Shown here piece by piece: positions 28-19,567 of a DNA stretch of 53,739 nt. The stretch lies in the IMG/VR virus record IMGVR_UViG_3300048896_000074, positions 1 through 53,739 of that record; one strand, 5' to 3'. Position 1 is the first letter of the stretch. Each line of letters starts with the position of its first letter. This DNA is from a virus (Duplodnaviria > Caudoviricetes). The notes under the pieces were generated by a model. It had not been told where the DNA came from. It ran no database searches and saw only the letters and a program-made list of their open reading frames with translations. The position numbers were made by a program, and so were the translations under genes.

Positions 28-444
28 TCAACTCCCCCCCCGGCGCCGTCCGGTTCGGTGCGCTGGGTGTCGCGCATCGTTGGGCCATCCGTCTGCGCCG
101 ATGTCTTGCTTGAAGCCTGGGCGCTTAGTCGTCTTGCCGGTGCGCTCGTCGCTCTGGATGGCTTGGTCGTGGCAGGGCTGGCAGACGCTTTGGTGGTTGC
201 CGGGGTCGAAGAAGAGATGCTCGTCTCCCTTATGCGGGATGCGGTGGTTGACGATAGTGGCTGCGACCGTGAAGCCAGCGGCGTCGCATCGCTCGCAGAG
301 TGGATGCGCTGATAGTTGAGCGATGCGTGCGTTACGCCAGCGTGCGGTGTTGTAGCGCCGGCGATAGGCGGCGGCGGTTGGTGACCTGCTATCCCTACGC
401 TCTGCCTTCGAGGGACGCGACGCGCTGGAGGACAATCGGCGCAT
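28..444 (-). CDS. HNH endonuclease, terminase-associated (HK97 gp74-like)
   Basis: Motifs RW..R...L..HPLCERC, ATIVNHRIPHKGD, NHQSVCQPCHD and C-terminal GADGWP.D; typical of packaging HNH proteins of cos phages. Confidence 0.85.
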   Translation of the reverse strand: MRRLSSSASRPSKAERRDSRSPTAAAYRRRYNTARWRNARIAQLSAHPLCERCDAAGFTVAATIVNHRIPHKGDEHLFFDPGNHQSVCQPCHDQAIQSDERTGKTTKRPGFKQDIGADGWPNDARHPAHRTGRRRGGS

Positions 445-4669: not shown

Positions 4670-4823
4670 GGCAGACCCCGCGACTTGGAACTTTCACGCG
4701 CGATTGGTATTATCGGCACAAGGCGGCTCCTGCATTGAGCTTGCTAAGGGCGGTGCGGTGTCTTTGCCGGACACGCATCGCCCGCCCCCTTTTTCCGCCC
4801 AGGTTGTGGAAACGTCAAGCGGG

Positions 4824-5411
4824 TCACGCGGCGGCCTCATCGAACTTGTCCGCCTCGTTGCCCCATACGGTCCAGCCTGGGCGTGACTGACGGCCGAAGA
4901 GTTCCAGCCGCGGCCCGGCGCAGTAGGCTTCGATTCGGTCGTAAGATTCCTCGGGCTTGCGCGAGTGCTCCCTACGGTGGGCGATAATGACCTGCCGCGT
5001 TGACTTGTTTAGCCGCTTCGGAGATCCGCGCCGGCCAAGCAGGACGAGCTCGGCGTTCTGGCGGGTCGTGTGCCCCATGCCGACGAACATGCTCTGGACG
5101 TCGGAGAACAGGACCGGCGCGTGCTTGTTCAGCTTCAGCCAGACGAAGGCGACGGTCGAATAGTCGAACCCCCATGCGCGCATGAGATCGAGTGCCTGCG
5201 GTAGATGCGGCGTCGTCGTCCAAAGGAACAGGTGGGCGCCCTTCGCGCAGACGTCGGCGACCGGGAGCTCCTTGATCCCGGCCAGATGCATCGTCGGGTA
5301 GTGCTGGACGGCGCCGCGGCCCTCTCCTTTCGCGCTCCGGACTTTGTATGTCCAGGGCGGATCCGCGAGCACACAGCCAAAGCCGCCTGGAGTGGTAGGA
5401 AGGAGGATCAT
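4824..5411 (-). CDS. MT-A70 family adenine methyltransferase
   Basis: LADPPW, HYPTM, LFLWTT, AWGF.Y, GMGH.TR.NAE, REHSRKP, RLELFGR..RPGW..WGNE. Confidence 0.93.
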   Translation of the reverse strand: MILLPTTPGGFGCVLADPPWTYKVRSAKGEGRGAVQHYPTMHLAGIKELPVADVCAKGAHLFLWTTTPHLPQALDLMRAWGFDYSTVAFVWLKLNKHAPVLFSDVQSMFVGMGHTTRQNAELVLLGRRGSPKRLNKSTRQVIIAHRREHSRKPEESYDRIEAYCAGPRLELFGRQSRPGWTVWGNEADKFDEAAA

Positions 5412-5890
5412 CCGACCAGCGCCCCCGCAAATGGGAAACCGTCGATCGCCGCATAGCGACTGCGCTTGAAATTGCCCGGAAACGAATAACCGATCGGGTA
5501 GAGCGAGACGGTCTGGCTGACGGTTTCCACGGGGAGATAGGCCACGGTGCGGCTATCCAGCGCCACCAAGGCCAGCACGTCGCAGTGCTCCGCCGATAGG
5601 CGCGATCCTTTGCCGTCACGCCCGCGCCGACGCACATGGAAGACATAGACCATGTTCGGACAACGGCCTTTGGCGTTCGCGTTCTTTGGCTTGAGGGTTG
5701 ACTTCACCTGAACGCGCACGAAGCGGTCGCCGAGGTCCACCATCACGTCATAGGGAAGCCCCTGGTCGGTCAGGAATGCCCGATAGCCGGCCAGCATAAG
5801 GTCAGCGCAGACGAGGTGTTCGGCGGCCTTCCCGATCTCCAAGGAATCGGTGGCGAGGATGCAGGAGAACGGCCCGGGCGGCAGGGTCAC
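5408..5890 (-). CDS. PD-(D/E)XK homing-type endonuclease (group I intron-associated family-like) fused to an MT-A70-like N-terminal peptide
   Basis: IGKAAEHLVCADL...GY, PYDVMVD, RVQVKS, CDVLALVALD; GTG start at 5890 overlaps the upstream TGA. Confidence 0.8.
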   Translation of the reverse strand: MTLPPGPFSCILATDSLEIGKAAEHLVCADLMLAGYRAFLTDQGLPYDVMVDLGDRFVRVQVKSTLKPKNANAKGRCPNMVYVFHVRRRGRDGKGSRLSAEHCDVLALVALDSRTVAYLPVETVSQTVSLYPIGYSFPGNFKRSRYAAIDGFPFAGALVG

Positions 5891-6255
5891 GCGAACACCG
5901 CCTTGCACCGCTCCATCGCGCCCGGCGATAGCTGGTAGCGCTTCGGCTGCGACTGGAGGAAATCCTGCCCGAGCTTGCGGCGGATGCGCCAGGCCATGAC
6001 GTGCACGAAGTTGTCGGGGTCGGTTCGCTCGTCCCTGACCGTCGGTGGGATGCGCTCCTCGATCTGGAGGCGCAACAGCGGCTTGCCGCCAGCAGTGTAG
6101 AGCGCGGCGACCATCGACGCTTCGGTATGGGTCAGCGCGAAGGCGTTGCGGAGCCGCGCGACGGTATCGGCGGCGATCAGCGCGCCGGCCTCGGCCTTCC
6201 AGTAGTCGCGCTCGGCGGTCAGTTCCTCGATGCGCTCGTAGAGGGCGGCGGTCAT
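5887..6255 (-). CDS. OmpR/PhoB-type winged-helix DNA-binding protein (CtrA effector-domain-like, no receiver domain)
   Basis: LT.TEA...AAL and NFVHVMAWRIRRKLG resemble Trans_reg_C; ATGA coupling at 6255. Confidence 0.65.
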   Translation of the reverse strand: MTAALYERIEELTAERDYWKAEAGALIAADTVARLRNAFALTHTEASMVAALYTAGGKPLLRLQIEERIPPTVRDERTDPDNFVHVMAWRIRRKLGQDFLQSQPKRYQLSPGAMERCKAVFA

Positions 6256-6938
6256 GACGTGGCCGTCCTCGCGTCGTACCGCGCCGCGTTCCGCTCCCAT
6301 ACGACCGGCCTGTGGAAGCAGATGGCGCGGTGTTCCGCACACCAGGGAGCGCCCGGAACAGTCGGCGCCGCGCAGCACATCATCTTGTCCATCTCGCCGT
6401 GGCCCGGGTCGTCGAGGCCGAAGCGGCACTGCGAGGGTCCGGTCTTGTTGTAGGGCATGGGATCGGTCGGCGGACGAGGCGACGCGGCTGCTGCGGCGCG
6501 TAGGGCTGGCCGTGGAGGCGGGACGCGGACCTTCGGCGGCCTCGGGATGCTCCTCGCCTTCGGCTGCCCCTGGCGCTTCGGGCGGGCCTCGCGCGGCGGC
6601 TTCGGATCTGACGGGCCTGCGATCTTCCCAGGATCGAACGCGCGTCCGTCGCGTACGCCCAGGCGATGCAGCTTCGCGATCGCCTTGTTCCGGGTGATCC
6701 CCATCTCGTGCGCGATCTGGCTGCCGGTCATGCCGCGATTGTAGAGCCGCACGAGCAGTTCCAGCCGCTCCGGCGTCCACGAGGCCGCGCCTGTCCTCGA
6801 CGGGCCCATGTGGTAGGCGATGCTCTGGGCGTTGAAGCCGAGCTCGCGGGCGATATCGGCTTGCGAGAGACCCTCGTCGGCGAGGGCCTCGGCGCGAGCG
6901 GTCGCGGCCTCGTTCCAGCGGCGGGCGTGGGCGGTCAT
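6252..6938 (-). CDS. gcrA: GcrA-family cell-cycle regulator homologue with an extra N-terminal HTH
   Basis: WTPERLELLVRLYNRGMTGSQIAHEMGITRNKAIAKLHRLG and C-terminal CRF..DP......CCAAP..G.PWC.EH...CF. Confidence 0.85.
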   Translation of the reverse strand: MTAHARRWNEAATARAEALADEGLSQADIARELGFNAQSIAYHMGPSRTGAASWTPERLELLVRLYNRGMTGSQIAHEMGITRNKAIAKLHRLGVRDGRAFDPGKIAGPSDPKPPREARPKRQGQPKARSIPRPPKVRVPPPRPALRAAAAASPRPPTDPMPYNKTGPSQCRFGLDDPGHGEMDKMMCCAAPTVPGAPWCAEHRAICFHRPVVWERNAARYDARTATS

Positions 6939-18394: not shown

Positions 18395-18739
18395 CTAGAA
18401 GATGCCGAGGAATGGCTTGCGCGTCAATTCCTTCACGAGCGCCGCGTCCCGGGCCTCGCATGCCGACACGATATGAAGCGTCTCGGCCTCGCGGCTGTTG
18501 GCCGTGTCGAGGTTCCCGGTCTGCTCGTCGGAGAAGCTGATCCAGTCGCCCACCGTCGCGCCGCCGCCAGGGAGCGGAGCGCCGGCCACGCCCTGCGCCC
18601 AGGCGCCTGGGACTAGCGTCGAGCAGCTATCGGCCGGTCTGCTGGTCACAATAGGCGTAGCGCAACCCGATAGCACAATCGCGATGGCCGCGATGGCTGT
18701 CCTGAGATAAAATCTGGCCCTTGTCTCGGAGTTGGTCAT
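18395..18739 (-). CDS. outer-membrane spanin (Rz1-like lipoprotein)
   Basis: Lipoprotein signal ...AIAAIAIVLSGC; CS.LVP..W..GV.GAPLP; last gene of the lysis cassette. Confidence 0.75.
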   Translation of the reverse strand: MTNSETRARFYLRTAIAAIAIVLSGCATPIVTSRPADSCSTLVPGAWAQGVAGAPLPGGGATVGDWISFSDEQTGNLDTANSREAETLHIVSACEARDAALVKELTRKPFLGIF

Positions 18740-19196
18740 GGCTGCACCAAAGTCACCGGAAGAACAGGTCACAAGGTTTGAGCCCGACCCAAACAGCGGG
18801 TGCTGGCTTTGGCTGGGAGCGACGAATCCGAGCGGATACGGGCACTTCACATCGCGCGGAACTCTGCGGCTGGCGCACCGCGCGGCCTTTGAGGTTCACA
18901 TAGGGCCGATACCTAGCGGGGTCTGCGTCTGCCACCGATGCGACACGCGGGCGTGCATCAACCCGGACCACCTCTTTCTTGGGAGCGCGGCAGATAACAG
19001 TCACGACGCGCTCAAAAAGGGCCGCCTCAAGACCCATCGCGGCGTGGAGCATCCGCGCGCCGCTCTGACGGATGACGACGTGCGACAAATCAGACTGGAC
19101 TCTCGCACCTTGACCGAGATCGGCAATGACTACGGCGTTCACCATACGACCGTCATGCGGGTTAAAACCCGAAAGCGCTGGGCGCACGTCGCCTAA
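18738..19196 (+). CDS. free-standing HNH homing endonuclease
   Basis: PNSGCWLWLG, GYG.F, AHR.AFE...GPIP.G..VCH.CD..ACINPDHL..G...DN..D...KGR with C-terminal HTH; antisense to the late operon. Confidence 0.92.
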   Translation: MAAPKSPEEQVTRFEPDPNSGCWLWLGATNPSGYGHFTSRGTLRLAHRAAFEVHIGPIPSGVCVCHRCDTRACINPDHLFLGSAADNSHDALKKGRLKTHRGVEHPRAALTDDDVRQIRLDSRTLTEIGNDYGVHHTTVMRVKTRKRWAHVA

Positions 19197-19567
19197 CTCC
19201 CCGGCGCGCGTAGTTGCCGACACGCAGGGTCGTTCTGGTATGCCCGTCTCAGGCACAAAGCCCGCAGGCCAGCATTGTCAGCGTCAGGAGTGACCGGAAC
19301 CTCGGCGCCCTTGGCATGGGTGATCTTCTCTCGGTTGGATCTGGTGAGCTCCGCAGTCGCCGCCTCGCTCGTCGCCTCGCGCTGGACGGCCTCGACCGCG
19401 ACGTGGCCCGACGCCGTAGCCGCGGTGATCGACTTCCCCGCCGCGTCGCTCTGGGCGGCCGTGGAGACCGCTCGCTGGTGAGCCGTCCATGTAGACCATC
19501 CAAGGTACCCGAGGCCGCAAACGGCTATCAGGGCCAGCGCGCCGAGTATCCCAGCGAGGAACCTCAA
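19193..19567 (-). CDS. inner-membrane spanin (Rz-like)
   Basis: N-terminal TM, Ala-rich coiled coil, C-terminal LC.RRAY.NDPAC. Confidence 0.75.
   Translation of the reverse strand: MRFLAGILGALALIAVCGLGYLGWSTWTAHQRAVSTAAQSDAAGKSITAATASGHVAVEAVQREATSEAATAELTRSNREKITHAKGAEVPVTPDADNAGLRALCLRRAYQNDPACRQLRAPGS

What the first reader, a model, noticed from the sequence alone, without database searches (positions are those of the whole stretch)
5350..5890. PD-(D/E)XK endonuclease took over the MT-A70 start and supplies a replacement N-terminus
Seen: the endonuclease ORF starts MTLPPGPFSCILA and then switches to nuclease sequence, while the downstream MT-A70 starts MILLPTTPGGFGCVLA-DPPW. Joining ...ATC CTC GCC to GAT CCG CCC TGG rebuilds a normal MT-A70 start (LPPGPFSCILADPPW). 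Inference: a homing endonuclease inserted immediately before the catalytic DPPW codons, uses the host gene's translational coupling, and carries a recoded copy of the first about 14 codons, giving intron-less, splice-free neutral insertion. Together with the spanin case, the same strategy appears twice with unrelated nuclease folds.
Basis: partly seen in the sequence, partly recalled or inferred. Interest (0 to 1): 0.75.

Follow-up and report, generated by a model that had tools for sequence, protein, structure and literature searches.

The report
Nuclease gene lodged inside phage methylase
A small selfish nuclease gene sits inside the start of a phage DNA-methylase gene: it borrows that gene's own start and brings a spare beginning so the methylase stays whole, which is a mirror image of a trick so far described in fungal mitochondria.

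Summary
On the minus strand a 160-aa PDDEXK_5 nuclease ORF (5408..5890) starts with 13 codons that are not nuclease. They are identical, 13 of 13, to the start of an uninterrupted MT-A70 allele (P0123/P0243). From DPPW onward that allele is 178/179 identical to the window's MT-A70 (4824..5411). A contig of an independent soil-type run joins window 5363 to 5856 and skips the nuclease, so the empty site exists as DNA. The insert is 488 nt (5364..5851): the nuclease body, a stop overlapping a new ATG (ATGA), and 16 substitute MT codons. Rfam finds no intron. The predicted fold matches I-Ssp6803I best. The cassette recurs (93% aa) in another virus whose methylase body is only 45% identical.

The pattern is general. 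30 of 118 nuclease homologues carry MT-A70 N-terminal relics, and none reaches past A-D-P of the motif. Two distinct nuclease ORFs on three IMG/VR loci do the same in the unrelated N6_N4 methylase family, ending at T-D before PPY.

Cleavage and homing are inferred, not shown. The substitute N-terminus is a diverged natural type, not a synonymous recoding. The closest precedent is the fungal mitochondrial "gene hybrid" with a duplicated C-terminus. I class this as a new variant of a known kind.

The parts
5887..6255 (-). Upstream 122-aa gene (weak winged-helix/Trans_reg_C likeness). Its TGA stop (5887-5889) overlaps the GTG at 5888-5890.
   Evidence: Trans_reg_C 20 bits, below the cut-off of 26.2. 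The flank is 96-97% identical in the X3 contig that lacks the nuclease.
5852..5890 (-). Relic: the original MT-A70 start codon (GTG) and 13 codons (VTLPPGPFSCILA), now the 5' end of the nuclease ORF.
   Evidence: 13/13 identical to the N-terminus of the uninterrupted alleles P0123/P0243. It lies outside the PDDEXK_5 domain. In the model, mean pLDDT is 51 for residues 1-10 and 69 for 11-20.
5408..5890 (-). Whole nuclease ORF, 160 aa: relic plus a PDDEXK_5 (I-Ssp6803I-like) PD-(D/E)XK domain. JGI's gene call starts 6 codons further upstream (166 aa, P0245).
   Evidence: Pfam, JGI call. AF2 model pLDDT 87.4. Best PDB fold match 2OST, E 1.8e-7. dN/dS about 0.02 against L021.
5364..5851 (-). The 488-nt insert relative to the empty allele: nuclease codons 14-160 and stop, plus the new ATG and 15 further codons of substitute MT 5' end.
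   Evidence: The X3 contig joins 5363 to 5856 with 4 letters between. P0123 gives the same joint as protein.
5364..5411 (-). Substitute MT-A70 5' end (MILLPTTPGGFGCVLA). Its ATG (5409-5411) overlaps the nuclease stop (5408-5410).
   Evidence: It is conserved together with the nuclease in L021 (11/16 aa, 24/30 nt) while the MT bodies are 45% identical.
5352..5363 (-). DPPW codons (catalytic motif IV of MT-A70). This is the right edge of the insertion and of the DNA block shared with L021.
   Evidence: (similarity to L021 runs 5886..5352 only).
4824..5411 (-). MT-A70 adenine methyltransferase ORF, 195 aa, complete domain. JGI's gene call starts only at M41 and so misses DPPW.
   Evidence: 8.1e-31, profile 1-172 of 172. 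(P0244, 155 aa).

Best explanation
This is a free-standing, intron-less homing-endonuclease cassette of the I-Ssp6803I (PDDEXK_5) family, lodged in frame in the 5' end of a phage MT-A70 DNA adenine methyltransferase gene, immediately before the DPPW codons.

Shown here: relative to a near-identical virus, the window has 488 extra bases. They split the MT ORF after codon 13. The nuclease body is fused to those 13 codons, so it starts at the MT's own GTG, which overlaps the upstream gene's stop. The nuclease ORF ends in a stop that overlaps a new ATG. That ATG is followed by 15 more codons of a different, natural-type MT N-terminus, which runs into DPPW and restores a full-length MT-A70 domain.

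Inferred: the nuclease cuts nuclease-less MT alleles in or next to the A-D-P codons of motif IV. Repair from a cassette-bearing genome during co-infection or phage-prophage contact then copies the cassette in. The relic serves as the left homology arm and DPPW onward as the right arm. The diverged substitute N-terminus keeps the restored junction from being cut again and from recombining with the relic. The MT is translated by termination-reinitiation at ATGA.

Likely origin (inferred): a nuclease gene that first sat free just upstream of an MT gene. It became embedded when the broken left end of a cut recipient, which ends at A-D-P, was joined to the 5' part of the donor's nuclease gene.
For: - Empty allele as protein and as DNA.
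- Gene overlaps GTGA and ATGA. The MT domain is complete.
- Family and fold: PF11645 above its cut-off. Best PDB fold match is I-Ssp6803I, 2OST, E 1.8e-7, TM 0.56-0.64. The D...QVK core aligns to 2OST residues 34-59. E24, H25, D48, D52, Q61 and K63 are invariant in 24 homologues.
- Purifying selection: dN 0.036, dS 1.74 against L021.
- Mobility independent of the host gene: DNA similarity to L021 covers only window 5886..5352 (79%). Nuclease core 93% aa against MT body 45% aa. The nearest relatives of L021's MT body carry the relic-type N-terminus (80 of 119), not its own type (16 of 119).
- Sporadic occurrence: 0 of 80 IMG/VR MT-A70 loci have the nuclease within 1.5 kb.
- Recurrence: 30 of 118 homologues have N-terminal extensions like MT-A70 N-termini (z>=4, 0 of 30 shuffles). 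By my reading of that list, 20 reach A, AD or ADP and none goes further.
- Same layout in N6_N4_Mtase genes: the relic ends at T-D before PPY in L035 and in L044/L047, which share an identical ORF (SW 122-124, z 23-28).
- Of 110 distinct nuclease ORFs, 34 lie directly upstream of an MT-A70 gene and 14 directly upstream of an N6_N4 gene.
- No intron.
Against: - No cleavage, homing, RNA or protein data exist. No listed sequencing run is RNA.
- The DNA-level empty site rests on one 419-nt contig of depth about 7. The protein-level evidence rests on three short JGI contigs.
- dS between the window and L021 is saturated, so no recent transfer is documented.
- The rebuilt target shows no clear pseudo-palindrome at the joint (6 of 12 positions), whereas I-Ssp6803I recognises a pseudo-palindromic 23-bp site (PMC3384342, passages read).
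- 54 of 110 distinct nuclease ORFs are not next to a recognisable methylase, so methylase genes are not the family's only context.
- A nuclease sitting beside a methylase is also the layout of a restriction-modification pair.
- A TTG at codon 17 of the window's ORF could serve as an internal start; L021 and L023 have none there.
Confidence: 0.8

Rival explanations
1. Same cassette, different origin and unit of transfer. The nuclease normally travels as a free-standing gene together with the whole 5' part of the donor's MT gene. The relic is merely the stump of the recipient's gene, left by a one-sided, illegitimate or microhomology join at the broken end. It is not a designed part of a precise insertion. 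On this view the 'replacement N-terminus' is simply donor MT sequence, and the relic's 3' edge marks the cleavage site.
For: - Many loci have the nuclease free, directly upstream of an MT with no relic: L002, L003, L024, L025, L027, L029 and L088-L100, and Klebsiella phage KO-TP1 gp37/gp38.
- Relic lengths vary. Ten of the 30 stop short of the motif and none passes A-D-P. In L001 the joint is 18 codons upstream of DPPW.
- The native nuclease N-terminal stretch in several clades reads ...LAxDPxxA..., a possible microhomology with MT ...LADP....
- The substitute N-terminus is a natural MT type.
Against: - Between the window and L021 the shared DNA block stops sharply at DPPW and includes both the relic and the substitute N-terminus, while the MT body is unrelated at DNA level. 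So at least now the unit that moves, or is conserved, is the compact cassette and not the donor's whole MT.
- This rival and the best explanation differ only in history. They are not exclusive.
Confidence: 0.4
2. The nuclease and the methylase form a restriction-modification-like or addiction pair. The nuclease attacks DNA that lacks the neighbour's methylation. The N-terminal likeness is a by-product of local rearrangement.
For: - The PD-(D/E)XK fold is the commonest restriction-enzyme fold (PMC3384342, passages read).
- Strict same-strand adjacency with overlapping stop and start, next to methylases of two families, in 48 of 102 evaluable distinct loci.
Against: - The nuclease alone is absent from near-identical DNA that keeps an intact methylase.
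- 0 of 80 related MT-A70 loci have it.
- Nuclease (93% aa) and MT body (45% aa) have different histories.
- Relics of at least six N-terminus types, all ending at the same motif, indicate repeated insertion into the gene rather than a partnership.
- The closest structure is a homing endonuclease, not a restriction enzyme.
Confidence: 0.07
3. The direction is reversed. The nuclease-bearing arrangement is ancestral in this lineage, and the 'empty' alleles arose by deletion between the two imperfect direct repeats (relic and substitute N-terminus).
For: Both copies end in the same five bases, CTC GC, before the joint, so recombination could in principle restore the frame.
Against: - The X3 allele spells the L-A codons differently from both window copies (the 4 other letters), so it is not a recent deletion product of a window-like sequence.
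- The relic-type N-terminus is the common state of uninterrupted MT-A70 genes: 80 of 119 and 18 of 80.
- Nuclease-less genes are the norm.
Confidence: 0.05
4. It is a group I or group II intron, or an intein, removed at RNA or protein level, so that one MT polypeptide with the relic N-terminus is made.
For: NCBI names some homologues 'group I intron-associated PD-(D/E)XK endonuclease'. The family's founder is intron-encoded.
Against: - Rfam at E<=10 over 4700-6400 gives only two chance-level hits, neither an intron. There are 0 gathering-level hits in 14 related loci.
- The nuclease ORF ends in a stop and changes frame, and the MT has its own ATG and a complete domain.
- The 16 substitute codons would be pointless in a spliced element.
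Confidence: 0.02

Closest known systems
I-Ssp6803I (PDB 2OST), founder of the PD-(D/E)XK homing endonucleases (Pfam PDDEXK_5)
   Same: Same Pfam family. Best fold match. Similar size, about 150 aa. Shared D...QVK core.
   Different: [quoted passage not shown] Here there is no intron. The gene sits in a protein-coding gene of a phage and is expressed from that gene's start. Sequence identity is 16-18%.
Mobile endonuclease ORFs that make 'gene hybrids' in fungal mitochondria (Allomyces atp6; Glomus atp6, atp9, cox2, nad3; Rhizopus atp9; Mortierella cox2)
   Same: An endonuclease ORF inserted in phase in a host gene carries a diverged copy of the host gene's terminus that replaces the native one. 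The native terminus stays as a relic that matches element-free relatives (PMC3630166, passages read). Here the relic is 13/13 identical to the empty allele, while the substitute shares 8 of 13 residues with it.
   Different: This is the mirror image: the N-terminus is duplicated, not the C-terminus. The relic is not dead DNA, because it supplies the start of the nuclease ORF. The nuclease family is PD-(D/E)XK, not LAGLIDADG or GIY-YIG. The host is a phage, not a mitochondrion. The target is a catalytic motif shared by two methylase families.
Free-standing homing endonucleases of T4-like phages (Seg, Mob; 'intronless homing') and HEG-split genes (mobE in nrdA of Aeh1, mobA in T4 gene 39/60)
   Same: A homing endonuclease gene without an intron or intein, placed next to or inside a conserved phage gene (PMC2988022, passages read).
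   Different: In those cases the split gene yields two polypeptides that must reassemble, and cleavage sites lie hundreds of bases from the gene (same paper). Here only 13 codons are cut off and are replaced by a carried copy, so one full-length enzyme is made. The relic ceiling at A-D-P suggests cleavage at the insertion point.
ShiLan insertion with a hidden out-of-frame HNH endonuclease in actinophage DNA methylase genes
   Same: [quoted passage not shown]
   Different: There the insert is read through in frame as a loop of the methylase and the HNH is in another frame. Here the host ORF is terminated and restarted, with a duplicated N-terminus. The nuclease family also differs.
'Fractured genes': split inteins with a free-standing HEG between the halves
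   Same: A free-standing endonuclease gene sits between two parts of a host gene (PMC2677866, abstract only).
   Different: Those depend on trans-splicing of split inteins. No intein sequence is present here, and the downstream ORF is self-sufficient.

Membership tests
PDDEXK_5 / I-Ssp6803I-type PD-(D/E)XK homing endonuclease | Match to Pfam PF11645 above the gathering score | tested here: met
   27.9 bits against 26.1. 27.5 bits in the six-frame search. NCBIfam gave no hit.
PDDEXK_5 / I-Ssp6803I-type PD-(D/E)XK homing endonuclease | Fold like I-Ssp6803I | tested here: met
   AF2 model pLDDT 87.4, pTM 0.82. The four chains of 2OST are the top Foldseek hits, E 1.8e-7 to 2.7e-5, TM 0.51-0.64. 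Hjc resolvases come next.
PDDEXK_5 / I-Ssp6803I-type PD-(D/E)XK homing endonuclease | Conserved acidic and lysine catalytic core (D ... Q/E-x-K) | tested here: met
   E24, D48, D52, Q61 and K63 are invariant in 24 homologues. The segment aligns to 2OST residues 34-59. Which 2OST residues are catalytic is recalled, not checked.
PDDEXK_5 / I-Ssp6803I-type PD-(D/E)XK homing endonuclease | Encoded within a self-splicing group I intron | tested here: not met
   No intron model matches in the window or in 14 related loci. It is therefore free-standing.
Homing endonuclease gene (any family) | Presence/absence polymorphism at one precise site among near-identical genomes, with the host gene intact in both | tested here: met
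   P0123/P0243, the X3 contig, and 0 of 80 MT loci carrying it.
Homing endonuclease gene (any family) | Cleaves the element-free allele and is copied into it | not testable with these tools
   Needs the enzyme and a homing assay.
Mitochondrial-type endonuclease 'gene hybrid' element | The element carries a diverged duplicate of the host gene's terminus, and the native terminus is retained and matches element-free relatives | tested here: met
   The relic is 13/13 identical to P0123. The substitute shares 8 of 13 residues with the relic and 13 of 24 bases in the last 8 codons. Here, however, it is the N-terminus that is duplicated.
Mitochondrial-type endonuclease 'gene hybrid' element | LAGLIDADG or GIY-YIG endonuclease, C-terminal duplication, organelle genome | tested here: not met
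   PD-(D/E)XK fold, N-terminal duplication, virus record.
Type II restriction-modification pair | Nuclease and methylase inherited together as a unit | tested here: not met
   The nuclease alone is missing from near-identical DNA. Nuclease 93% against MT body 45% identity to L021.
Type II restriction-modification pair | Nuclease blocked by the partner's methylation of a shared short site | not testable with these tools
   No biochemical data.
Intein | In-frame insertion without a stop, flanked by splicing blocks | tested here: not met
   The ORF ends in TGA at 5408-5410 and the frame shifts by one. The MT restarts at its own ATG.
MT-A70 DNA adenine methyltransferase (the host gene) | Full Pfam PF05063 domain with the DPPW motif | tested here: met
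   8.1e-31, profile 1-172 of 172, DPPW at residues 17-20.

The most novel reading that the evidence does not exclude
A whole clade of I-Ssp6803I-like nucleases homes on the DNA that encodes the catalytic motif IV (DPPW or DPPY) of phage DNA methyltransferases from two unrelated families. These nucleases spread as splice-free cassettes that take over the victim gene's translation start and bring a cut-resistant spare N-terminus. The fixed A-D-P (or T-D) edge of the relics records the cleavage point. By cutting methylase genes of co-infecting rivals, they would also act in phage-phage competition over anti-restriction methylation.
Probability: 0.45. Interest if true: 0.78.

Novelty: new variant of a known kind. 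Interest (0 to 1): 0.66.

Why it matters
Three reasons it matters:

- It shows a third way, besides introns and inteins, for a homing endonuclease to sit inside an essential part of a gene without harming it: end the host ORF early, reuse its start, and carry a spare terminus. The C-terminal form of this trick is described in fungal mitochondria (PMC3630166). The N-terminal form, where the relic drives expression of the nuclease, turned up in none of my searches of the held library. Subscription journals and supplementary files were not searchable.
- It gives a testable prediction of the cleavage site, namely the A-D-P codons. It also gives a natural pair of cut-sensitive and cut-resistant sites for a small (about 145-aa) PD-(D/E)XK enzyme.
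- It explains annotation errors. JGI called the window's methylase from M41, without DPPW. It also warns that N-termini of phage methylases can be chimeric.

Tried and rejected
- Chance likeness. The window's two N-termini alone score weakly (2 of 200 shuffles reach the score). I set this aside once the 13/13 empty allele appeared.
- Intron or intein. Rejected (ORF structure).
- Pseudo-palindrome at the rebuilt target, as expected for a tetrameric I-Ssp6803I-like enzyme. The best centre near the joint has only 6 of 12 complementary positions. The best overall (8 of 12) lies 17 bases downstream. Uninformative.
- RNA evidence. No RNA holder is listed among the 20 runs, so nothing can be said on expression or splicing from reads.
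- Coverage gaps of runs X2 and X4 over the nuclease. These are contig data, so I did not use them as evidence of absence.
- A near-identical empty allele for L021's methylase. None was found: the best relative is 81% identical. Only the N-terminus type of its relatives could be used.
- NCBIfam gave no family for the nuclease or the MT. The PHROG families of the nuclease have no known function.
- Phage isolates. Only 2 of 50,697 records match the nuclease by tblastn. KO-TP1 has it free-standing upstream of an MT-A70. phi18-2 has it next to no annotated methylase.
- E. coli complete genomes. 22 of 5,426 hold the KO-TP1-like MT-A70 at 83-91% identity without the nuclease part of the query. Of these 22 I looked at only two neighbourhoods. 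The match begins near ADPPW mainly because the N-termini are short, so I draw no boundary argument from it.
That each is followed by an MT with its own N-terminus is therefore shown only for the loci I hold as DNA.
- Literature. I found no paper that pairs homing endonucleases with MT-A70 or DPPW. In one search, 70 papers held 2 of the 3 terms, and none of the 15 listed had 'homing endonuclease'.
- The count of 20 of 30 relics reaching A, AD or ADP is my reading of the list printed, not a scripted count.
- Rows dropped. In one search, 3 of the 121 sequences (P0001 plus the 120 listed homologues) had no GKAAEH-type anchor and were left out. In one search, 8 loci with under 300 nt downstream were set aside, and 23 loci with identical nuclease ORFs were collapsed.
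Full report
**What is in the window.** All genes here lie on the minus strand.
- A 122-aa gene (5887..6255) ends in a TGA that overlaps a GTG at 5888-5890.
- From that GTG runs a 160-aa ORF (5408..5890). It reads VTLPPGPFSCILA and then TDSLEIGKAAEH...
- Its TGA overlaps the ATG (5409-5411) of a 195-aa ORF (4824..5411), which reads MILLPTTPGGFGCVLA and then DPPW....
- Pfam places PDDEXK_5 on residues 18-125 of the first protein (27.9 bits, cut-off 26.1). It places a complete MT-A70 domain (profile 1-172 of 172, E 8e-31) on residues 11-186 of the second.
- So the first 13-17 residues of the nuclease lie outside its domain. In an AlphaFold model built on 24 homologues (pLDDT 87.4, pTM 0.82) they are the least confident part, with mean pLDDT 51 for residues 1-10 and 69 for 11-20.
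- The window is a whole IMG/VR virus record of 53,739 bases, with CheckV completeness 80.

**Is the likeness real?** The two N-termini share 8 of the 13 relic residues. Their local alignment score is reached by 2 of 200 shuffles, which is suggestive only.

The decisive result came from a search with the methylase. Its best hit, P0123 (192 aa), begins VTLPPGPFSCILA and continues directly with DPPWTYKV.... It is 13/13 identical to the nuclease's N-terminus. It is 178/179 identical to the window's methylase from DPPW to the end. P0123 and its cluster mate P0243 come from three short JGI contigs.

Independent DNA evidence came from laying public runs on the region. In run X3 (a rhizosphere metagenome from another study) one contig of 419 nt (depth 6.9) matches 5184-5363 with 5 differences and 5856-6090 with 8 differences. 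It skips 492 bases, with four other letters between. Rebuilt in a script, the joint reads LPPGPFSCILADPPWTYKVRS in the methylase frame.

The window therefore has 488 extra bases (5364..5851). They hold nuclease codons 14-160, a stop, a new ATG and 15 further codons.

**What the nuclease is.**
- The predicted fold matches the four chains of I-Ssp6803I (2OST) best (E 1.8e-7 to 2.7e-5, TM 0.51-0.64). Archaeal Hjc resolvases come next.
- A profile of 24 homologues finds 2OST by sequence only weakly (E 0.007), over the D...QVK core.
- E24, H25, D48, D52, Q61 and K63 are invariant in those 24 homologues.
- Against its closest relative with DNA in hand (L021, IMG/VR) the core is 93% identical in protein but 79% in DNA. 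dN is 0.036 and dS is 1.74. The gene is therefore under strong purifying selection and is not a decaying remnant.
- There is no intron. Rfam at E<=10 over 4700-6400 gives two chance-level hits, neither an intron. Fourteen related loci give no gathering-level hit.
- It is not an intein, because the ORF stops, the frame shifts, and the methylase restarts.

**Evidence that the cassette moves independently of its host gene.**
- DNA similarity between the window and L021 is confined to window 5886..5352. That span is the relic, the nuclease, the substitute N-terminus and DPPW. The upstream gene and the methylase body are not similar at DNA level.
- The nuclease cores are 93% identical, the methylase bodies 45%, and the substitute N-termini 11 of 16.
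- The relatives of L021's methylase body mostly carry the 'LP.GPF.CILA' type of N-terminus (80 of 119). That is L021's relic type, not the 'LPTTP.GF' type it actually uses (16 of 119).
- In the second subclade (L022, L023) the substitute N-termini resemble each other (9 of 16), while the relics differ in length and type.
- From the methylase side, none of the 80 best IMG/VR relatives of this MT-A70 has the nuclease within 1.5 kb. That set was ranked by similarity and is not an unbiased sample.
- Both N-terminus types occur in uninterrupted genes. The substitute is thus a natural variant, probably from a donor allele, and not a synonymous recoding. In the last eight codons, relic and substitute share 13 of 24 bases.

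**Generality.**
- Of 118 nuclease homologues that could be anchored (P0001 plus 117 of the 120 listed), 30 have an N-terminal extension significantly like MT-A70 N-termini (z>=4, 0 of 30 shuffles). They represent at least six N-terminus types.
- By my reading of that list, 20 extend to A, AD or ADP of the motif, 10 stop earlier, and none goes past ADP.
- Of 110 distinct nuclease ORFs in 133 loci, 34 lie directly upstream of an MT-A70 gene and 14 directly upstream of an N6_N4_Mtase gene. 54 lie elsewhere and 8 lack downstream DNA (Pfam on samples).
- Significant duplication of the downstream methylase's N-terminus is seen in the window, L021(=L101), L022, L023(=L102), L001, L026 and L030. It is seen most strikingly in L035 and L044/L047, where 30-34 residues of an N6_N4 methylase N-terminus, ending at T-D just before PPY, are fused to the nuclease (SW 122-124, z 23-28).
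- The other methylase-adjacent loci have the nuclease free-standing, without a relic. These include the isolate Klebsiella phage KO-TP1, gp37/gp38.
I saw the same peptides independently.

**How it most likely works.**

Shown: the insertion, its exact borders, the reuse of the methylase's start codon and of the stop-start overlaps, the restored full-length methylase ORF, conservation of the nuclease, and its sporadic, host-gene-independent distribution.

Inferred:
- The enzyme cuts nuclease-less alleles at or beside the A-D-P codons. The common ceiling of independent relics points there.
- Repair copies the cassette, with the relic as the left homology arm and DPPW onward as the right arm.
- The diverged substitute N-terminus protects the restored junction.
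- The methylase is made by reinitiation at ATGA.
- The variable shorter relics, the many free-standing copies, and a possible LAxDP microhomology in the nuclease's own N-terminal stretch suggest an origin. Embedded copies may arise when the cut left end of a recipient is joined illegitimately to the 5' part of a donor's free-standing nuclease gene.

A restriction-modification reading is unlikely, because the nuclease alone is polymorphic and its history differs from the methylase's. A deletion origin of the empty alleles is unlikely, because the X3 allele spells the joint codons differently from both window copies and because nuclease-less genes are the norm.

**Comparison with what is known.**
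- The enzyme belongs to the I-Ssp6803I family but is not intron-encoded (PMC3384342, passages read).
- Free-standing phage endonucleases (Seg, Mob) and HEG-split genes such as mobE/nrdA are known. There the host protein is made in two pieces, and cleavage sites lie far from the gene (PMC2988022, passages read).
- The nearest precedent in design is the mitochondrial 'gene hybrid'. In it an endonuclease ORF inserted in phase brings a foreign C-terminus and leaves the native one as a relic (PMC3630166, passages read; the original Allomyces paper is only cited there).
- The present case is the N-terminal mirror image, in a phage, with another nuclease fold, and with a relic that drives the nuclease's own translation.
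- A hidden HNH insertion in actinophage methylases (PMC11855218, abstract and section 4.2 read) shows that methylase genes are targets of homing elements, but its layout differs.
- My six literature searches found no description of this arrangement. Subscription journals and supplements were not covered.

**Verdict.** It is a new variant of a known kind. Its interest is moderate to high for people who study mobile elements, mainly because the pattern is recurrent, spans two methylase families at the same catalytic motif, and makes the cleavage site predictable.

Noticed in passing
L035:3900-5168, L044:3900-5129, L047: The same nuclease family is embedded in N6_N4_Mtase (PF01555) genes. 30-34 residues of the methylase N-terminus, ending at T-D just before PPY, are fused to the nuclease. 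A full methylase with its own similar N-terminus follows (SW 122-124, z 23-28).
   Followed up: partly
L010-L016, L036-L056, L066, L118-L119 (Rhodobacterales-type loci): A large group of nuclease homologues has a conserved 30-residue N-terminal extension beginning MQQSLFEHLGFD. They are followed by a small DUF7220 membrane-protein gene, not a methylase. Whether that extension is a relic of another host gene is unknown.
   Followed up: no
L020:3990-4110: In a 494-kb MAG contig, an MT-like relic plus only the first ~20 residues of the nuclease are followed by unrelated sequence and a stop, with no methylase downstream. It looks like a decayed remnant of such a cassette.
   Followed up: partly
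L217:1977-3142 (Klebsiella phage KO-TP1 gp37/gp38); L219, L220 (E. coli prophages): An isolated phage carries the nuclease free-standing, overlapping by 25 nt the start of an MT-A70 gene. 22 of 5,426 complete E. coli genomes have that MT-A70 (83-91% identity) without the nuclease part of the query. In the two neighbourhoods I read, a DUF1317 gene and an unnamed gene lie upstream instead.
   Followed up: partly
window 18732-19196 (+), between 18395-18850 (-) and 19193-19567 (-): An HNH_3 ORF (PF13392, 46 bits) lies on the strand opposite two spanin-like ORFs and is wedged between them, overlapping both ends. Being antisense, it cannot take over a start codon in the same way. A second HNH (PF01844) lies at 163-297 (-).
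   Followed up: partly
window 4824-5411 and 5408-5908: JGI's gene calls on this record start the methylase only at M41 (155 aa, without DPPW) and the nuclease six codons further upstream (166 aa). Automatic annotation therefore hides the arrangement.
   Followed up: yes
L001:3958-4530: Here the duplicated part is the very first 12 residues (MVDFKKRLITSG against MVEFKSRLITSG). The joint lies 18 codons upstream of DPPW, unlike the window's joint at the motif.
   Followed up: partly
L018:4456-5051 (Paenibacillus apiarius contig): The open frame of the MT-A70 match after the nuclease begins at RPPW, with no N-terminal strand or start codon in view. This may be a methylase disabled at the same spot.
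   Followed up: no
P0026, P0055, P0062, L004, L026, L027 N-termini: The nuclease's own N-terminal stretch in several clades reads ...LRRLAxDPxxA-LE-GKAAEH. Its LAxDP resembles the methylase's ...LADP.. and could serve as microhomology for the fusions.
   Followed up: no
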